Origin: a phage | Strand: one strand, 5' to 3' | NCBI GenBank assembly: GCA_024614665.1 | Contig: GCA_024614665.1_4861.1 | Length of the DNA: 64,000 nt | Part shown: in pieces, positions 15,885-30,282 of the stretch | How positions within the stretch are numbered: position 1 is the first letter of the stretch | Layout of the letters: the number at the start of each line of letters is the position of its first letter | Made by a program: the position numbers and the translations under genes | The notes under the pieces: generated by a model | Database searches by the model: none | Seen by the model: the letters and a program-made list of their open reading frames with translations, nothing else | Told to the model about the DNA's origin: nothing

Positions 15885-15954
15885 TCTCTTAATTCCTCAT
15901 TACGTGGGTTGTTTCACATAAGTTAGTGGACTGATGTAAATAAAAAGGGACCCC

Positions 15955-15972
15955 CTTACCCATGGGCAAGGA
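15955..15972 (-). terminator. hairpin terminator
   Basis: Imperfect stem CCTTACCC/GGCAAGG followed by U-rich tract; downstream of 15981..16463. Confidence 0.4.
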
Positions 15973-15980
15973 GGTAGACC

Positions 15981-16463
15981 TTACAGTTGGTTTTCTTCGC
16001 GGTCGTCTGTCAGGACAGCAGCACAGATAAAGCGTGCGAGTTTCAATTTCGCAGCTGCAGTCTCCTCTGCAGATGGATTCGGGTCAACCGGCGCAGCCAA
16101 ATCGACGTCTGCCAGCTCTTCCGCGTATTTCTCAGCAGCTTCATCGAAGCCTGCACGGATACCTGCCAAAAGGTCTTGTACTTCATCGCTTGGCACAGGA
16201 CCATCGATAAGAATCTTCTGAGCGTCAGACGGTTCCACATCAGCAAAGTTCATTTCGTTTAACATGCCAATGCGTTCTGCGTTAGAGGTGATGAGTTGTG
16301 CCAACAGTTTTTCAAAACGGTTGATATGTTCATCGTCCAACGGTTGACCGGTCAGTAGCTCGTAGTAGCGGGCCATAAGTGTGTTCGCGTCGGCCCCTTC
16401 CTCATGACGCACGCCTAAATCAAAATCGTGCTGAGGGAGCTGACCTAATTCGATCATATCCAT
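15981..16463 (-). CDS. strongly acidic protein, about 160 aa
   Basis: ORF; ATG at 16461-16463 with GAGG SD; very high Asp/Glu content. Confidence 0.55.
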   Translation of the reverse strand: MDMIELGQLPQHDFDLGVRHEEGADANTLMARYYELLTGQPLDDEHINRFEKLLAQLITSNAERIGMLNEMNFADVEPSDAQKILIDGPVPSDEVQDLLAGIRAGFDEAAEKYAEELADVDLAAPVDPNPSAEETAAAKLKLARFICAAVLTDDREENQL

Positions 16464-16503
16464 AGTTAACCTCAACGGTGTTTAAGGGTCATACAATGGC
16501 GAA

Positions 16504-16782
16504 TTACGCCGTTACCGGAACAGGGGTGATTAACAGCTCCCCTTCCACCTCACGTAACTGATAACCGTGCATAACGTTGTAGGATTTAATGCCGTCGCGT
16601 TGTTTGGCTTTCGCGACGAGTTTTTCCAACACGCGACTATGTGCACGCGTCATCTCTTCTTTCGAATAAACAACTTGGAGTACGTGCTGTTCGTCAATAA
16701 CGGCACGGAACTGCATTACATCACCGTCTTCAACGTTGTAAACGACTTCTTTAGACTTCGACACTGTACGATTAATTTGCAT
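16504..16782 (-). CDS. hypothetical protein, about 92 aa
   Basis: ORF; ATG at 16780-16782 with GGAG SD. Confidence 0.5.
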   Translation of the reverse strand: MQINRTVSKSKEVVYNVEDGDVMQFRAVIDEQHVLQVVYSKEEMTRAHSRVLEKLVAKAKQRDGIKSYNVMHGYQLREVEGELLITPVPVTA

Positions 16783-17584
16783 TATTTTCTCCATTAGTAG
16801 TTTTCAGGGCACGTCCGTACACATAACTTTCGGGTAGCCAACCGTTTTCTAATAACCACATTGCGGCTGGCCCCCCAGTATATTGGTGGTAAGTGTAAAC
16901 TAATTCATCCCCCACCGGTAATTCAGACTGGATACAGTGCATCAACAGTCCGAACTCCTCTCGAGTTAGAGCAACCACCCCTTCTGCGGTAAACCATCCA
17001 CCAATAACCCATCGATGCCCACGGTGCGAAAGCACTGTCAACTTGTAGCTATCAGCGTTTCGCCACGACATCAGCCTCCCGCCCGTAACGAGCGTTGAGT
17101 AGATAGAGCTTGTACCGTAAAGCATCCTAACCCAATCCAAGAACGCTTTCTTACTATCGAACAACGAACTGACATCCCCACAGAAATCCTCATCGTGGCT
17201 AGGCACCGATGAATTAATTTTGCGATAGTTTACCGTTTCGCAACAAAAGCCCATGCGTCCATATTCGTCCCCCTCCGAACGAGTAAAATGCATCGCGTAG
17301 TTACACCCCGCTGAACGGAGTAAAGCATCCGCAAGCGAGGTTAACTGGGCGTCTAAAGCACGAACCATGTTGATAACTTCTAACATGTATCCGTGGTCCA
17401 GACAGAGCACGATCGCGTCTGGCGCAACTGTGTCCCGACTGAACACTTCAAAGATTCGGTAATAAAGACGACGTTCATCTTGTAACGTGGAAGGATCGAT
17501 ATCATTTAACAACGATAACGCCTTACGGTCTTCCAACCACGTTCGGTCCAGAATCCTCTCCGTGCGTTCGATAACTCTCAGCAT
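16772..17584 (-). CDS. hypothetical protein, 270 aa
   Basis: ORF track. Confidence 0.55.
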   Translation of the reverse strand: MLRVIERTERILDRTWLEDRKALSLLNDIDPSTLQDERRLYYRIFEVFSRDTVAPDAIVLCLDHGYMLEVINMVRALDAQLTSLADALLRSAGCNYAMHFTRSEGDEYGRMGFCCETVNYRKINSSVPSHDEDFCGDVSSLFDSKKAFLDWVRMLYGTSSIYSTLVTGGRLMSWRNADSYKLTVLSHRGHRWVIGGWFTAEGVVALTREEFGLLMHCIQSELPVGDELVYTYHQYTGGPAAMWLLENGWLPESYVYGRALKTTNGENNAN

Positions 17585-17593
17585 ATTCTCTCC

Positions 17594-18397
17594 TTACGCA
17601 AGGGTGTAATGATGCGTGATTACACGATACTCCAACCCTTCGATAGAAGGAAGCTCGTGCTCTATCGCAACACCCATGTTGACCTTTTTACCTTTCTGTC
17701 CCGCCAAATGCAAAATAGCGTGGTAGTGTTTTAGAAACTCTACCGAGTAAGCAACCGGGTCAAAAGTTTGGCAGCAGAATTGCTCAGTAATGATACTCTT
17801 CGGGAATTCCTTATAAAGCATTAATGAGAACGGTTTCTGGCCGTGCAGCCCCACAAACGCAGAGACAAAACCATTTGCTAACTCGCCCAACATCTCTCGC
17901 GTTCCTGCGTCTTTTAGCGTAGGTCGCATCAGATAGCAAATATCTTGGGTTTGTTCTAATGACAATGTCTCCAACGGGACAACTGATGGGTCTGACGTAA
18001 AACCGTATTTCGGACTAACAGTAATCTCCACACGTTTCGTTACAGCTTCGAACCCCAGACGCTGGTATAGTGCTGCGTGTTCGGTGTCGTGCGGGAAACA
18101 GGTAATATCAAGCATCTGCACTTCCAGGAGTCGCGTTAAACGCTTCCACTCGTGGAACAGGGGCTCGGAGAGCACGTGCAGCTCGTAGATGTAGTAAACA
18201 ATACCTGAACGACATCCACGAAAATACATTTGCGCACGACCGCTATTGCTCAACACTAACCAATGATCGTCTTCTTGGTCTGCGACGGGTCGCAAATCTT
18301 GAATCCGTTCGCGGAGTTGCCCCAAGGTGGTCAATCGACCACTAAACTCTACGGTCAGGTCATTTTTGTCCATACCGTATAGATTAAATAGTTGCAT
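17594..18397 (-). CDS. hypothetical protein, 267 aa; weak GNAT-like C-terminal motif
   Basis: ORF track; HAALYQRLGFEAV resembles a GNAT motif but the match is weak. Confidence 0.5.
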   Translation of the reverse strand: MQLFNLYGMDKNDLTVEFSGRLTTLGQLRERIQDLRPVADQEDDHWLVLSNSGRAQMYFRGCRSGIVYYIYELHVLSEPLFHEWKRLTRLLEVQMLDITCFPHDTEHAALYQRLGFEAVTKRVEITVSPKYGFTSDPSVVPLETLSLEQTQDICYLMRPTLKDAGTREMLGELANGFVSAFVGLHGQKPFSLMLYKEFPKSIITEQFCCQTFDPVAYSVEFLKHYHAILHLAGQKGKKVNMGVAIEHELPSIEGLEYRVITHHYTLA

Positions 18398-18406
18398 GTT
18401 GGTACC

Positions 18407-19225
18407 TTATAGGGTGCCGATTAGCTCTGTCACCGCTTTACGCTTATTCGCATCCGCAGACATATATCGACCTACCTGAACTTCGCGCCAAGTAAAGCCG
18501 TAATAAATATCGCGTGTGAGTAACGTATCTGCGTTTGACAGAACGACCTTATTGCCATCGGCAGCTTGTTGTTTTAAAAGTTTCGCTAACTCGCGGTGGT
18601 CAGCTTGTGAAAATTCTTTGCTGTGATACTGCGCGTGTTTAGCCGTATCCGAAAGTGGGATGTAAGGCGGGTCAGCGTATATCACAGCGTTAGATGGGCA
18701 CTTATTTAGGATGTCGCGGAAGTCCGCGCAGAGTAGTTCGACGTTGGTTTCCGAACAACGTTTTGCCCACGCCAGAATTTCCTCTTCAGGGAAATAGACA
18801 CCGTTCGGATGTTGACCATAGGGCACGTTAAACCCACCCGACTGATTGTATCTGCACAAACCATTGTAACCATGACGTGTAAGATACAGGAACATCGCGG
18901 CGCGCTGGAGATTAGGTTTCCCCGTGGTTGCTTCGCTGTTAAATCCCTCGCGTCGTTCCATGTAGAGACCGCGGTCCGTCCCATTTGCAAAGAGCGCCTT
19001 TGCTTCCAGAATCAGCGCTTCCGGACGATCGCGCGCCATGGTCAGTAACTCGATTAAGTCCGGGTTCGTGTCGCCGAGAATATAGTTCGGGTATTTAGTG
19101 TTTAAAAACACTGACCCTGCACCCACAAACGGTTCAACGAAATACTCAGCATCTGGAAGCACCTGTAGCAGCTCGGGAAGTACGCGACTCTTACCACCCA
19201 TCCATTTTAAAATTGGTCTTATCAC
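18407..19225 (-). CDS. dam: DNA N6-adenine methyltransferase, Dam family
   Basis: N-terminal KWMGGKSRVL and FVEPFVGAGSV (SAM-binding) plus DPPY catalytic motif. Confidence 0.85.
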   Translation of the reverse strand: MIRPILKWMGGKSRVLPELLQVLPDAEYFVEPFVGAGSVFLNTKYPNYILGDTNPDLIELLTMARDRPEALILEAKALFANGTDRGLYMERREGFNSEATTGKPNLQRAAMFLYLTRHGYNGLCRYNQSGGFNVPYGQHPNGVYFPEEEILAWAKRCSETNVELLCADFRDILNKCPSNAVIYADPPYIPLSDTAKHAQYHSKEFSQADHRELAKLLKQQAADGNKVVLSNADTLLTRDIYYGFTWREVQVGRYMSADANKRKAVTELIGTL

Positions 19226-19231
19226 CCGTTA

Positions 19232-20230
19232 TCATCCTCTCATGCCAGATTGAAACATATCACTAATAGTCAGCCTGGTTGTAGTCTCCACCGGAATGCT
19301 AGGTTCTTCTTTCAGCACACGATCGGCGCGGTTCCCATTCACCCGTTTCCAGCTAATAAGTTCAGGATCGCGTTTCAGCGTTAGTGTACGTAGTACCTGC
19401 TTGCAACGTAAGATGTTGCCATACAGGTGATTTGCTGGATCATTATCAGCAGCTGTTTCAATATAGACTTGGTCGGAATGACGTTGTGCGAAATCGAACA
19501 GCGCGCCCATTAGCCGGCGGCCAATGCCACGTTTACGGTGCGTGGGTGCAACGGTTAAACCAGAAAGTTCAACGACGCCTGGTGTAACCAAGCGCATCTG
19601 GGCAATACCGACGATATCATGACCGTCTCGCCAAATTGCAGTCTCCACATTAGCGTGCTGAATTCTTGCTATTACTGTTTCTGCTAACGGACCAATGTGT
19701 GTATAGTAGCCACGCATATCGTATTCTAGCTCTTCGCAAATTGCACCGCTAATCAAATTCAGGATAACGTCTTTATCATCCTTGGTAAGTTCTGCGTATG
19801 CATCACCAGAAATAATCTTGATTTCCGGTGCGGTTATTACTTTGTCAAACAGTTTGGAATGACATGCCCAAACGATATCTGAAAGAACAAACCCTTTTTC
19901 GACCAGTTTTTGTTCAACATCGTCAGTAGGTGCTGGACACGACATATATTCGAATCCGGTATGGTCGAGCACAAGGGCCAAACCAACTTTATCGAACGCC
20001 CCAGGTACAAACTCCTCAAAATAGTGACAGGTTAGTGTAGGGTCACCGTGTCGATAGGTGGCCACTAAATAACCCTCCCAGGTTTCTTTATTCTTCACCA
20101 CGTAAACAGAATAAGTCTCGTCCTTTAGAAACTCTTTTAGGCGGCGTGCTCGTACAGTATCGGTACCGACGTTATTTCGGAACTCGGCAGTGCGGATGCT
20201 GGTGCGAAACAATTTAGCCACAGTTTTCAT
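19232..20230 (-). CDS. protein with C-terminal GNAT N-acetyltransferase domain, about 333 aa
   Basis: GNAT motif A in RKRGIGRRLMGALFDFA; ATG at 20228-20230. Confidence 0.65.
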   Translation of the reverse strand: MKTVAKLFRTSIRTAEFRNNVGTDTVRARRLKEFLKDETYSVYVVKNKETWEGYLVATYRHGDPTLTCHYFEEFVPGAFDKVGLALVLDHTGFEYMSCPAPTDDVEQKLVEKGFVLSDIVWACHSKLFDKVITAPEIKIISGDAYAELTKDDKDVILNLISGAICEELEYDMRGYYTHIGPLAETVIARIQHANVETAIWRDGHDIVGIAQMRLVTPGVVELSGLTVAPTHRKRGIGRRLMGALFDFAQRHSDQVYIETAADNDPANHLYGNILRCKQVLRTLTLKRDPELISWKRVNGNRADRVLKEEPSIPVETTTRLTISDMFQSGMRG

Positions 20231-20292
20231 TGTAATGCCCTCAAAAGGTATTGCTGTCACAACATGAGGATAATGCGTAAAAAGACAAAAAA

Positions 20293-20316
20293 TTAAGGGG
20301 TCCGAAGACCCCTTAA
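20293..20316 (-). terminator. UUCG-loop hairpin terminator
   Basis: TTAAGGGGTC-CGAA-GACCCCTTAA immediately after the stop at 20320. Confidence 0.55.
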
Positions 20317-20319
20317 TGA

Positions 20320-22551: not shown

Positions 22552-22627
22552 TTTATTCTTCCCCAAAAGTTTAATTAATTGTAGTGGTGTCACAATATAG
22601 CGACCATACGTAAAGAAAAAAATAATG

Positions 22628-24911: not shown

Positions 24912-25379
24912 TTAAAGCTCCTTTACCATATCCTGGTATTCAGTTCGAAAACCGAAACGTTCATAAAACGCAATAGCACGGTCGTTATTACCGAGCACGT
25001 TAAGCTGCATCCATGCGCAGCCTTTTGATTTGCCGTAATTTTCTACGGCTTCAATTAACTCATGACCGACGCCTTGAGAGCGAACTGATTCATCTACAAA
25101 GAAGTTATATACCCAGAGGAAACGTTGTCCCTTTTTGGTGTAGCCAAAGGTGATGAAACCAACAGCCACACCACGGTCATCAACGGCGCAAGCGCACAGC
25201 GTACCTTCACCCCAAACCTCCTCCAGTTTTGAGATTTGATTAAACCCTTCACGACCGTTTAAGTCGGCAAGTTTTATTTTCTGATCGTCGTATAACTTGT
25301 TGTGTAGTCCTAACAAGTCCGCGTAGTATTTCTTTCCATACGGAGAGTTGGGCTTGGTGACAAAAACAATTTTCATCAT
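24912..25379 (-). CDS. GNAT family N-acetyltransferase, 155 aa
   Basis: VDESVRSQGVGHELIEAV (motif A) and AIAFYERFGF (motif B). Confidence 0.75.
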   Translation of the reverse strand: MMKIVFVTKPNSPYGKKYYADLLGLHNKLYDDQKIKLADLNGREGFNQISKLEEVWGEGTLCACAVDDRGVAVGFITFGYTKKGQRFLWVYNFFVDESVRSQGVGHELIEAVENYGKSKGCAWMQLNVLGNNDRAIAFYERFGFRTEYQDMVKEL

Positions 25380-27422: not shown

Positions 27423-27462
27423 GGACTTACCTCCTATACGGAGTGGACGATTCGTAAGAAAA

Positions 27463-27489
27463 AATAAATACCTACCCTCGCTAAACGGG
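27463..27489 (-). terminator. hairpin terminator
   Basis: CTACCCTCGC-TAAACG-GGCGAGGGTAG then U-run; downstream of 27503..28120. Confidence 0.55.
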
Positions 27490-29097: not shown

Positions 29098-29583
29098 TTA
29101 GACGAATTGACCTTCTGCCATCGAAAGAAAAATGGGAACGCTTTCAGCGTAATGAGTTAAAAGCTTTTCCTCCGGTGGCGTGTGTGACGAAATAACATTG
29201 TAGTTCGTCATACGAAAATACCGTTGGCCGTCAGCAGCAATATACCATCGGTCAATCTGGAAGCCTTGTTGGTGAAAGAATCCCAGCGCAGGAATATTAG
29301 TCGGGTGAACACGACAGCTGATGTGTTTACGATCGGAGTTCTGTTGAAGGTACTTAAGCATAAATCTACCGACGCCGCCGCGTCGCGATTCCTCGGGCAC
29401 AACCATATAGACCAAATGGCCAGGTTCCCATGCCATGATTCCCCGCACGATATCATCCTCAACAAACATCGTGAGTTTAATAGGCTCCTCACGAATACTG
29501 TTTAAGTCGCGTACCCATTCAACCAGTTCAGGATAAACGTTCGCAGGAATCTTATCCTCGACCACATTAATAACAAGCATCAC
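29098..29583 (-). CDS. GNAT family N-acetyltransferase, 161 aa
   Basis: VPEESRRGGVGRFMLKYL (motif A) and ALGFFHQQGF. Confidence 0.7.
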   Translation of the reverse strand: MMLVINVVEDKIPANVYPELVEWVRDLNSIREEPIKLTMFVEDDIVRGIMAWEPGHLVYMVVPEESRRGGVGRFMLKYLQQNSDRKHISCRVHPTNIPALGFFHQQGFQIDRWYIAADGQRYFRMTNYNVISSHTPPEEKLLTHYAESVPIFLSMAEGQFV

Positions 29584-30218: not shown

Positions 30219-30282
30219 TTTTTATATTCCTTTTGGTCTTGCTTACACAGTAATTTACATAGACGTAATAAAAAAATAAGAA

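What the first reader, a model, noticed from the sequence alone, without database searches (positions are those of the whole stretch)
16772..20230. Dam methyltransferase embedded in a cluster of acetyltransferase-like genes
The Dam-type methyltransferase (18407..19225) is immediately followed by a 333-aa protein with a C-terminal GNAT domain and preceded by a 267-aa protein with a weak GNAT-like motif. Two further GNAT genes lie at 24912..25379 and 29098..29583. Three to four GNAT enzymes within 13 kb is unusual for a phage. GNATs can inactivate host translation (tRNA-acetylating toxins), antibiotics, or defence components, so this could be a host-takeover or anti-defence set.
Basis: partly seen in the sequence, partly recalled or inferred. 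Interest (0 to 1): 0.5.

Follow-up and report, generated by a model that had tools for sequence, protein, structure and literature searches.

The report
Dam methylase flanked by GNAT-fold paralogs
In this SPN3US-type giant Salmonella phage an ordinary GATC Dam methylase sits in one tightly packed transcription unit with three related two-domain GNAT-fold proteins, only one of which still looks able to use acetyl-CoA. This is a conserved but mostly already annotated gene block, with no sign of toxin-type acetyltransferases.

Summary
The window is a Seoulvirus (97-98% identical to SPN3US and SaP7). The genes are SPN3US gp104 (GNAT), gp105 (Dam), gp106, gp107, gp95 (GNAT) and gp88 (GNAT). GenBank already annotates all of them except gp106 and gp107.

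New here:
- Weak but position-consistent profile matches, plus Foldseek hits, suggest gp104, gp106 and gp107 are paralogous two-domain proteins.
- gp104-gp109 lie between two terminator-like hairpins, with 6-9 nt gene gaps between gp104 and gp107.
- Dam is a full-length EcoDam relative with its GATC-contact residues. GATC is strongly depleted in the window (O/E 0.38).

Other points:
- gp95 is the orthologue of experimentally verified phage spermidine acetyltransferases, although the identical SPN3US protein tested negative.
- gp88 has a solved structure (7DQG).
- Nothing resembles TacT/AtaT toxins or Mu Mom.
- The host-takeover or anti-defence reading remains untested.

Verdict: modest interest. 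These are new members of a known superfamily inside a known phage.

The parts
20292..20317 (-). Terminator-like hairpin (11-bp stem, TTCG loop, T-run) directly after the gp103 stop. It marks the upstream boundary of the unit. The 60 nt between it and the gp104 ATG contain a T-run followed by TTTACGCAT, a possible promoter.
19232..20230 (-). gp104 homologue, 332 aa, a two-domain protein. The C-terminal domain is a GNAT with the acetyl-CoA signature RKRGIG (starting at residue 232). The N-terminal domain (~1-135) is probably a degenerate GNAT-like domain. The last two sense codons (AGA GGA) double as the Shine-Dalgarno sequence of Dam.
   Evidence: Pfam PF00583 1.9e-14. Motif. N-domain matches to the gp106 and gp107 N-domains at equal positions. 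Foldseek match of the gp106 model to gp104-type proteins of Erwinia phages. Junction alignment.
18407..19225 (-). gp105 homologue, 272 aa: an orthodox Dam-family N6-adenine DNA methyltransferase, predicted to be GATC-specific. The start codon is GTG.
   Evidence: PF02086 2.1e-53. TIGR00571 5.3e-76. E. coli Dam 7e-58, with LKW, GYNGLCRYN, FNVP, FVGAGS and DPPY aligned. Start codon conserved across genera.
17594..18397 (-). gp106 homologue, 267 aa: a lineage-restricted GNAT-fold protein, probably a tandem GNAT, without the acetyl-CoA P-loop motif.
16772..17584 (-). gp107 homologue, 270 aa: a second GNAT-fold protein without the acetyl-CoA motif. The C-terminal domain is modelled confidently. The N-terminal domain is inferred from its secondary-structure pattern and profile matches.
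16504..16794 (-). gp108 homologue (92-96 aa, unknown function). It overlaps the 3' end of gp107 and belongs to the same unit.
   Evidence: phrog_7896, unknown
15981..16475 (-). gp109 homologue (164 aa, acidic, unknown function), the last gene before the downstream terminator.
15950..15975 (-). Terminator-like hairpin (11-bp stem plus T-run) that closes the gp104-gp109 unit.
24912..25379 (-). gp95 homologue, 155 aa: a single-domain GNAT (RSQGVG) in a separate unit. It is 100% identical to the SPN3US protein. It is 72% and 53% identical to the verified spermidine N-acetyltransferases of phiEaH2 and Caitlin respectively.
   Evidence: PMC9992855
29098..29583 (-). gp88 homologue, 161 aa: a single-domain GNAT (RRGGVG) in a separate unit. 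Its crystal structure is deposited as 7DQG, 'putative acetyltransferase'. The substrate is unknown.

Best explanation
This is the gp104-gp109 transcription unit of an SPN3US-type, nucleus-forming jumbo phage (Seoulvirus).

What it encodes:
- An orthodox Dam methyltransferase (gp105).
- Three lineage-specific proteins around it, gp104, gp106 and gp107. They most likely descend from one two-domain (tandem) GNAT ancestor.

What is shown:
- Dam has every catalytic and GATC-contact element of E. coli Dam.
- gp104 keeps a canonical acetyl-CoA-binding GNAT domain at its C-terminus.
- gp106 and gp107 have GNAT folds but lack the pyrophosphate-binding signature.
- The genes lie between two terminator-like hairpins. 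Gaps between gp104 and gp107 are 6-9 nt, gp108 overlaps gp107, and Dam's ribosome-binding site lies inside the last gp104 codons.

What is inferred:
- The unit is made as one mRNA with coupled translation.
- Dam methylates GATC on replicating phage DNA. Host Dam is presumably shut out of the phage nucleus. Progeny genomes would then be protected from enzymes that cut unmethylated GATC, and the strong depletion of GATC further reduces targets.
- gp104 is an active N-acetyltransferase of unknown substrate with an MshD-like layout: a degenerate N-domain and a catalytic C-domain.
- gp106 and gp107 are non-catalytic, or at least not acetyl-CoA-dependent, paralogs that act as binding or regulatory partners.

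The link between Dam and the GNAT-fold genes is conserved co-transcription, not demonstrated functional coupling. The two other GNATs are independent single-domain enzymes elsewhere in the early/middle gene region. gp95 belongs to a phage spermidine-acetyltransferase family. gp88 is a crystallised GNAT of unknown substrate.
For: Identity of the window:
- It is 96.9-98.4% identical to SPN3US, SaP7 and other relatives.

Dam:
-.

gp104 and the other GNATs:
- GNAT domain and motif for gp104.
- Motifs for gp95 and gp88, and the 7DQG match for gp88.

gp106:
- Fold evidence. The top hits are tandem GNATs, with 171-180 residues aligned.

gp107:
- Fold evidence.

Paralogy:
- Whole-protein hhalign hits fall at equivalent positions.
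- Domain-wise hhalign gives N-N pairs at E 0.0011, 0.008 and 0.053, and gp106C-gp104C at 0.029. All N-C pairs exceed 0.14.
- Foldseek against BFVD ranks gp104-type proteins of Erwinia phages (E 1.6e-9 and 3.8e-8, about 280 aligned columns) directly after gp106's own family. A 256-aa phiEaH2 protein, the length of the gp107 homologue, scores 2.6e-4.

Unit structure:
- Terminators at 20317-20292 and 15975-15950, with none on the coding strand in between.

Conserved order:
- GNAT-Dam-gp106-gp107-gp108 is kept in Machinavirus, Wellingtonvirus and Seoulvirus at only 24-30% protein identity. Erskinevirus keeps Dam-gp106-gp107 without gp104.

Other:
- GATC O/E is 0.375, the lowest of all 16 four-base palindromes.
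- gp95 orthology to verified SATs.
- SPN3US forms a chimallin-type nuclear shell (PMC9365700).
Against: - Both AF2 models are of only moderate quality (mean pLDDT 62). Their N-terminal halves are below 50, so the 'tandem' call for gp107 and the N-domain assignments rest on weak evidence.
- Every hhalign match between the three families has low probability (at most 20%) and E values of 0.001-0.05.
- No structure was computed for gp104.
- Synteny among these collinear jumbo phages is generally high, so conserved order says little about shared function.
- Erskinevirus lacks gp104, so the proteins are not an obligatory set.
- The terminator and promoter calls are pattern matches only. The count of terminator-like sites does not exceed that in shuffled sequence.
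- Methylation of phage DNA, import of Dam into the phage nucleus, acetyl-CoA binding and expression timing were not and could not be tested.
- The SPN3US gp95 protein, identical to the one here, showed no spermidine acetylation in E. coli.
Confidence: 0.65

Rival explanations
1. The GNATs form a host-takeover or anti-defence set. They would acetylate host proteins, tRNAs (TacT/AtaT-like) or defence components, and Dam would add anti-restriction protection.
For: - Phage GNATs with such roles exist. The Rac acetyltransferase of phiKMV-like phages acts on the RNAP alpha subunit. Jumbo-phage GNATs have been predicted to modify host RNAP or ribosomal proteins (PMC7824862).
- The closest NCBIfam matches of gp104, gp95 and gp88 include RimI, all below cutoff.
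- The genes lie in a non-structural region. They are not mentioned in the main text of three SPN3US virion and head-assembly papers.
- Dam is a plausible anti-restriction function.
Against: - There is no TacT/AtaT-type hit among the PDB sequence matches.
- There is no toxin-antitoxin gene pair. The upstream genes are 377 aa and 212 aa, and the first is internal-head-protein-like.
- gp95 belongs to a family with demonstrated spermidine N-acetyltransferase activity.
- gp106 and gp107 lack the acetyl-CoA motif.
- No substrate information exists for gp104 or gp88.
Confidence: 0.2
2. This would be a DNA hypermodification module. The GNAT-fold proteins would act on DNA as Mu Mom does (a GNAT-superfamily enzyme that acylates adenine N6), together with or downstream of the Dam-type adenine methylase.
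For: - Mom-family GNATs that modify adenine N6 occur in jumbo phages (PMC7824862).
- The GNAT-fold genes here directly flank, and are co-transcribed with, an adenine-N6 enzyme.
- gp106 and gp107 lack the acetyl-CoA motif, so a different donor or chemistry is conceivable.
Against: - Profile comparison of the gp104, gp106 and gp107 families with Mu Mom gives E of at least 0.39.
- There is no Pfam hit to any DNA-modification family.
- No report of modified bases in SPN3US-type phages turned up in the literature searches.
- Strong GATC avoidance suggests that the sites are still a liability.
Confidence: 0.05
3. gp106 and gp107 are active transferases that use a donor other than acetyl-CoA. Aminoacyl-tRNA is one candidate, as in the two-domain Fem/MprF enzymes or L/F-transferase, which have GNAT-like folds without the CoA signature.
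Against: These hits rank below ordinary acetyl-CoA GNATs and MshD. Sequence identity is 4-11%. The model quality cannot discriminate between sub-families. No conserved catalytic constellation was identified.
Confidence: 0.07

Closest known systems
E. coli Dam / T4-type Dam (D12-class GATC N6-adenine methyltransferases)
   Same: The alignment to EcoDam is full-length (7e-58). It includes the FxGxG and DPPY motifs, the N-terminal LKW lysine, and the identical GYNGLCRYN...FNVP DNA-contact segment. It passes the TIGR00571 cutoff.
   Different: It scores below the equivalog cutoff for the enterobacterial host enzyme (245 against 441 bits), so it is a distinct phage lineage. It is encoded by a nucleus-forming phage whose own genome is strongly GATC-depleted.
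Mycothiol synthase MshD and other tandem-repeat GNATs (1ozp, 7q3a, 5kf1)
   Different: Sequence identity is 4-7%. gp106 and gp107 have no recognisable acetyl-CoA signature in either half. The family is confined to one clade of jumbo phages. There is no link to mycothiol or sugar-amine metabolism.
Phage spermidine N-acetyltransferases (phiEaH2 YP_007237670, Caitlin YP_009292176)
   Same: gp95 of the window is 72% and 53% identical to them over its full length, and occupies the same genome position.
   Different: The SPN3US protein, which is 100% identical to the one in the window, gave no N-acetylspermidine in the same assay (PMC9992855). This applies only to gp95, not to the Dam-flanking genes.
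TacT/AtaT tRNA-acetylating GNAT toxins
   Same: They share only the general GNAT fold.
   Different: There is no sequence match to any such structure. There is no adjacent antitoxin gene. gp104, gp106 and gp107 appear to be two-domain proteins twice the size of these toxins.
Mu Mom (GNAT-superfamily adenine-N6 DNA modifier)
   Same: It has a GNAT-related fold, and its biology is linked to Dam and adenine N6 (PMC7824862).
   Different: There is no detectable profile similarity (E of at least 0.39).

Membership tests
Dam family (D12-class N6-adenine DNA methyltransferase, GATC-specific) | Profile match above the curated cutoffs | tested here: met
   PF02086 scores 182.1 bits against a cutoff of 22. 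TIGR00571 scores 255.8 against 114.85.
Dam family (D12-class N6-adenine DNA methyltransferase, GATC-specific) | AdoMet motif FxGxG and catalytic motif DPPY | tested here: met
   FVGAG begins at residue 33 and DPPY at residue 185.
Dam family (D12-class N6-adenine DNA methyltransferase, GATC-specific) | Residues that contact GATC in EcoDam (the N-terminal Lys in LKW, the YNGLxR loop, the FNVP Pro) | tested here: met
   These residues are aligned and identical in the phmmer alignment to 2g1p. The assignment of their roles comes from my knowledge of the EcoDam structures.
Dam family (D12-class N6-adenine DNA methyltransferase, GATC-specific) | Methylation of GATC in DNA | not testable with these tools
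   This needs DpnI/DpnII digestion or SMRT sequencing of phage DNA grown on a dam-minus host.
GNAT acetyl-CoA-dependent N-acetyltransferases: gp104 C-domain, gp95, gp88 | Pfam GNAT profile above the gathering score, plus the Q/R-x-x-G-x-G/A pyrophosphate-binding motif | tested here: met
   PF00583 scores 54.4, 65.0 and 26.2 bits against a cutoff of 20.7. The motifs are RKRGIG, RSQGVG and RRGGVG. gp88 matches PDB 7DQG.
GNAT superfamily: gp106 | GNAT fold | tested here: met
GNAT superfamily: gp106 | Sequence-profile membership and the acetyl-CoA-binding motif | tested here: not met
   There is no Pfam or NCBIfam hit even at E of 1 or below. There is no Q/RxxGxG/A motif.
GNAT superfamily: gp107 | GNAT fold | tested here: met
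GNAT superfamily: gp107 | Sequence-profile membership and the acetyl-CoA-binding motif | tested here: not met
   There is no Pfam or NCBIfam hit. The motif is absent.
Tandem-repeat GNAT architecture (MshD-like) | Two GNAT-fold domains in one chain | tested here: inconclusive
   For gp106, 171-180 residues align to tandem GNATs and both halves show the beta-alpha pattern of a GNAT. For gp107 and gp104, the N-domains are supported only by the secondary-structure pattern, hhalign E values of 0.001-0.05 and Foldseek full-length matches. The N-halves of both models have pLDDT below 50.
TacT/AtaT-type tRNA-acetylating toxins | Sequence relationship to characterised toxins | tested here: not met
   None appears among the PDB sequence hits of gp104 (E up to 1), gp95 or gp88.
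TacT/AtaT-type tRNA-acetylating toxins | Bicistronic toxin-antitoxin arrangement with a small DNA-binding antitoxin | tested here: not met
   The neighbouring genes are 212-377 aa with no antitoxin-type domain.
TacT/AtaT-type tRNA-acetylating toxins | Growth arrest on expression; acetylation of aminoacyl-tRNA | not testable with these tools
   This requires an experiment.
Phage spermidine N-acetyltransferase (gp95 only) | Orthology to enzymes with demonstrated activity | tested here: met
   72% identity to the phiEaH2 enzyme and 53% to the Caitlin enzyme, over the full length. Accessions and sizes match SI Table S4 of PMC9992855.
Phage spermidine N-acetyltransferase (gp95 only) | N-acetylspermidine formation | not testable with these tools
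   Published assay: the identical SPN3US protein (YP_009153389) gave no product in an E. coli speG deletion strain (PMC9992855).
Mom-like DNA-modifying GNATs | Profile similarity to Mu Mom | tested here: not met
   hhalign E values are 0.56, 0.39 and 0.58 for the gp106, gp107 and gp104 families.

The most novel reading that the evidence does not exclude
The three tandem-GNAT paralogs and Dam would form one functional machine specific to this clade of nucleus-forming phages. One version: the two pseudo-GNATs (gp106, gp107) partner with the single active GNAT (gp104) and/or with Dam, directing acetylation or adenine modification to phage DNA, DNA-bound proteins or a host defence factor. This would be an epigenetic or anti-restriction module with no described counterpart.
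Probability: 0.08. Interest if true: 0.6.

Novelty: new member of a known kind. Interest (0 to 1): 0.25.

Why it matters
The practical gain is annotation. Two 'hypothetical' proteins conserved in SPN3US-type and Erwinia jumbo phages can now be labelled as divergent GNAT-fold proteins, probably pseudo-enzymes, related to the neighbouring acetyltransferase. The Dam start codon in the SPN3US reference record should be moved 8 codons upstream.

Biologically, two things are testable. A nucleus-forming phage carries its own Dam while strongly avoiding GATC, which bears on how these phages protect DNA in the vulnerable stage before the shell forms. A family expanded to one active and two degenerate tandem GNATs is a small, tractable example of enzyme-to-pseudoenzyme evolution in phages.

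None of this overturns current views. No evidence points to a new kind of system.

Tried and rejected
- BLASTP all-against-all of 14 local proteins found no paralogy.
- hhalign with shallow Seoulvirus-only profiles found nothing. Weak, position-consistent matches appeared only after adding Erwinia-phage homologues.
- Exhaustive HMMER with the gp106 profile over 1.84 billion representatives found only 11 proteins, all about 265 aa. It gave no bacterial or annotated relatives and so no functional lead. The word-indexed searches were equally narrow.
- I considered gp103 as a possible fourth paralog, because of a BLAST hit at E 0.15 and roughly 214-aa BFVD hits. Its positional counterparts in Erwinia phages align at only 18-27% with no conserved core, so I dropped the idea.
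- The Mu Mom comparison was negative.
- I looked for GATC clusters that might indicate Dam-regulated sites and found none of note.
- Literature searches for SPN3US gp104-gp107, 7DQG and GATC methylation of SPN3US found nothing specific.
- The sigma-70 promoter scan of the region did not exceed shuffled expectation. This is as expected for a phage that uses its own RNA polymerases.
- The conserved C-terminal tail of gp104 (F-x-S/L-G-x-R-G) looked like a possible peptide motif. Its last two codons are explained by overlap with the Dam ribosome-binding site. The rest remains unexplained.

Full report
**Identity of the window.** The 3.9-kb region is 98.4% identical to Salmonella phage SaP7 and 96.9% identical to SPN3US. 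23 phage records cover it in full. These are Seoulvirus jumbo phages. SPN3US builds a chimallin-type nuclear shell (PMC9365700). All genes in the region are on the minus strand. They map one-to-one to SPN3US gp104 (annotated GCN5-related acetyltransferase), gp105 (DNA adenine methylase), gp106, gp107, gp108 and gp109 (hypothetical), and further on to gp95 and gp88 (acetyltransferases).

**The observation.**
- Dam (18407-19225) hits PF02086 at 2.1e-53 and TIGR00571 at 5.3e-76.
- gp104 (19232-20230) is 332 aa, not 333. Its residues 195-271 are a GNAT domain (PF00583, 1.9e-14).
- gp95 and gp88 are single-domain GNATs (9.4e-18 and 1.1e-5).
- All three carry the Q/R-x-x-G-x-G/A acetyl-CoA signature. 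gp106 and gp107 do not.
- A Pfam scan of 82 ORFs covering the whole window finds exactly these three GNAT proteins.

It is also largely what GenBank already says.

**gp106 and gp107.**
- Neither matches any Pfam or NCBIfam model, and their PHROGs are of unknown function.
- Homologues exist only in Seoulvirus and related Erwinia jumbo phages. An exhaustive profile search of 1.84 billion representatives found only 11 proteins for gp106.
- The AlphaFold models are of moderate quality (mean pLDDT 62 for both). The C-terminal halves are confident and the N-terminal halves are poor.
- The secondary-structure order in both halves of both models follows the GNAT beta-alpha pattern.

**Paralogy.**
- BLASTP and shallow profiles show nothing.
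- After adding Erwinia-phage homologues, hhalign aligns gp106 86-125, gp107 87-122 and gp104 86-123 with each other. It also aligns gp106 43-191 collinearly with gp104 40-211, at E 0.007-0.017.
- Split by domain, the N-domains match each other (E 0.0011, 0.008, 0.053). gp106-C matches gp104-C (0.029). Every N-versus-C pair is above 0.14.
- Foldseek of the gp106 model against BFVD ranks the gp104-type 'GCN5-related' proteins of Erwinia phages Kwan and Derbicus directly after gp106's own family (E 1.6e-9 and 3.8e-8, about 280 aligned columns). A 256-aa phiEaH2 protein, the length of the gp107 homologue, scores 2.6e-4. Ordinary single-domain phage GNATs score 1e-4 or worse.
- Each line is weak on its own. 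Together they favour descent of the three proteins from one two-domain ancestor.

**Unit structure.**
- Terminator-like hairpins with 11-bp stems and T-runs lie on the coding strand at 20317-20292, just after gp103, and at 15975-15950, just after gp109. None lies between them.
- The gaps are 6 nt (gp104 to Dam), 9 nt (Dam to gp106) and 9 nt (gp106 to gp107). gp108 overlaps gp107.
- Dam starts at GTG 19225. Its AGAGGA ribosome-binding site is formed by the final Arg-Gly codons of gp104, and the same arrangement is present in pEa_SNUABM_29.
- Caitlin and Wellington start with ATG at the same position. The SPN3US record therefore starts Dam 8 codons too late and loses the conserved LKW lysine.
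- The order GNAT-Dam-gp106-gp107-gp108 is kept in Machinavirus and Wellingtonvirus at 24-30% identity. Erskinevirus phiEaH2 has Dam-gp106-gp107 but no gp104. Caitlin carries an extra gene of the gp107 position class.

**Dam.**
- It aligns end to end with E. coli Dam (7e-58). FVGAGS, DPPY, the N-terminal LKW and the segment GYNGLCRYN...FNVP are all conserved.
- I take the roles of these residues in GATC recognition from the published EcoDam structures, from memory.
- GATC is the most depleted four-base palindrome in the window (115 observed against 307 expected, O/E 0.375). There are no notable GATC clusters.

**The other GNATs.**
- gp95 is 100% identical to SPN3US gp95. It is 72% and 53% identical to the phiEaH2 and Caitlin proteins that produce N-acetylspermidine in E. 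coli. The SPN3US protein itself was negative in that assay (PMC9992855).
- gp88 equals PDB 7DQG, 'putative acetyltransferase'. I found no associated paper.

**Tests of named comparators.**
- No TacT/AtaT-type toxin appears among the PDB sequence hits of gp104, gp95 or gp88, and there is no antitoxin-like neighbour.
- Mu Mom shows no profile similarity to any of the three families.
- Chimallin's C-domain is also a GNAT fold, but no protein named as chimallin appeared in the top 50 BFVD list, where several entries carry no name.

**Interpretation.** The best-supported picture has four parts:
- a co-transcribed unit of an orthodox Dam plus one active and two degenerate tandem-GNAT paralogs;
- Dam probably methylating phage DNA that host Dam cannot reach inside the phage nucleus (inference);
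- gp104 acetylating an unknown amine substrate;
- gp106 and gp107 serving non-catalytic roles.

Functional coupling between Dam and the GNAT-fold proteins is not shown. Host-takeover, anti-defence, DNA-hypermodification and aminoacyl-transferase readings remain possible but have no positive evidence here.

**Verdict.** The finding is real and slightly richer than described. It sits inside a known, annotated phage lineage and a known protein superfamily, so interest is modest.

Noticed in passing
whole window (64 kb): GATC is the most under-represented of all 16 four-base palindromes (115 observed, 307 expected from trinucleotide content, O/E 0.375), even though the phage encodes a Dam-type methylase. 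CTAG comes next at 0.61. There are no striking GATC clusters.
   Followed up: partly
window 2682, 6775, 15511, 21824, 23319, 43167, 43972, 51044, 59547 (all minus strand): The 16-nt motif TTCAGATA[T/G]AT[A/G]TTA[C/T] occurs 9 times (0.14 expected), always on the coding strand. Where I examined the sequence, it lies in an intergenic region, often just after a terminator hairpin. It is very likely a phage promoter class. None directly heads the gp104-gp109 unit.
   Followed up: partly
window ~20270-20285, 22606-22619, 27450-27463, ~15930-15945, ~30265-30280 (minus strand): After several terminator hairpins, a T-run followed by TTTAC[G/A] precedes the next gene. This is seen before gp104, thymidylate kinase, gp92, gp110 and gp87. 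It may be a second promoter class that would place the Dam unit with nucleotide-metabolism genes. The motif is loosely defined and only weakly above chance.
   Followed up: partly
window 19195-19260 (minus strand); SPN3US record JN641803 gene SPN3US_0105: Dam most likely starts at GTG 19225, with its AGAGGA Shine-Dalgarno sequence inside the last two sense codons of gp104. The SPN3US and SaP7 annotations start 8 codons downstream at an internal ATG and so omit the conserved RPILKW segment.
   Followed up: yes
window 19232-19270 (C-terminus of gp104): The extreme C-terminal tail F-x-S/L-G-x-R-G is conserved among Seoulvirus-type gp104 proteins that are otherwise only 59-69% identical, and it follows a variable linker. 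The terminal Arg-Gly is explained by overlap with the Dam ribosome-binding site. The rest is unexplained, and the tail is absent in Erwinia Machina and Wellington types.
   Followed up: partly
L004 (Erwinia phage Caitlin) 4798-6359: Caitlin has two genes at the gp107 position. One is 28% identical to gp107. The other resembles the highly divergent gp107-position proteins of Machina and Wellington. These may therefore be a further, separately diverged member of the family rather than gp107 orthologues.
   Followed up: no
phage records LR5359xx (Salmonella phages SPFM1, 5-10, 12, 14, 15, 20): In these records the region matches only as many short pieces (up to 40), and their predicted proteins are scrambled. 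The likely cause is error-rich assemblies rather than real divergence.
   Followed up: no
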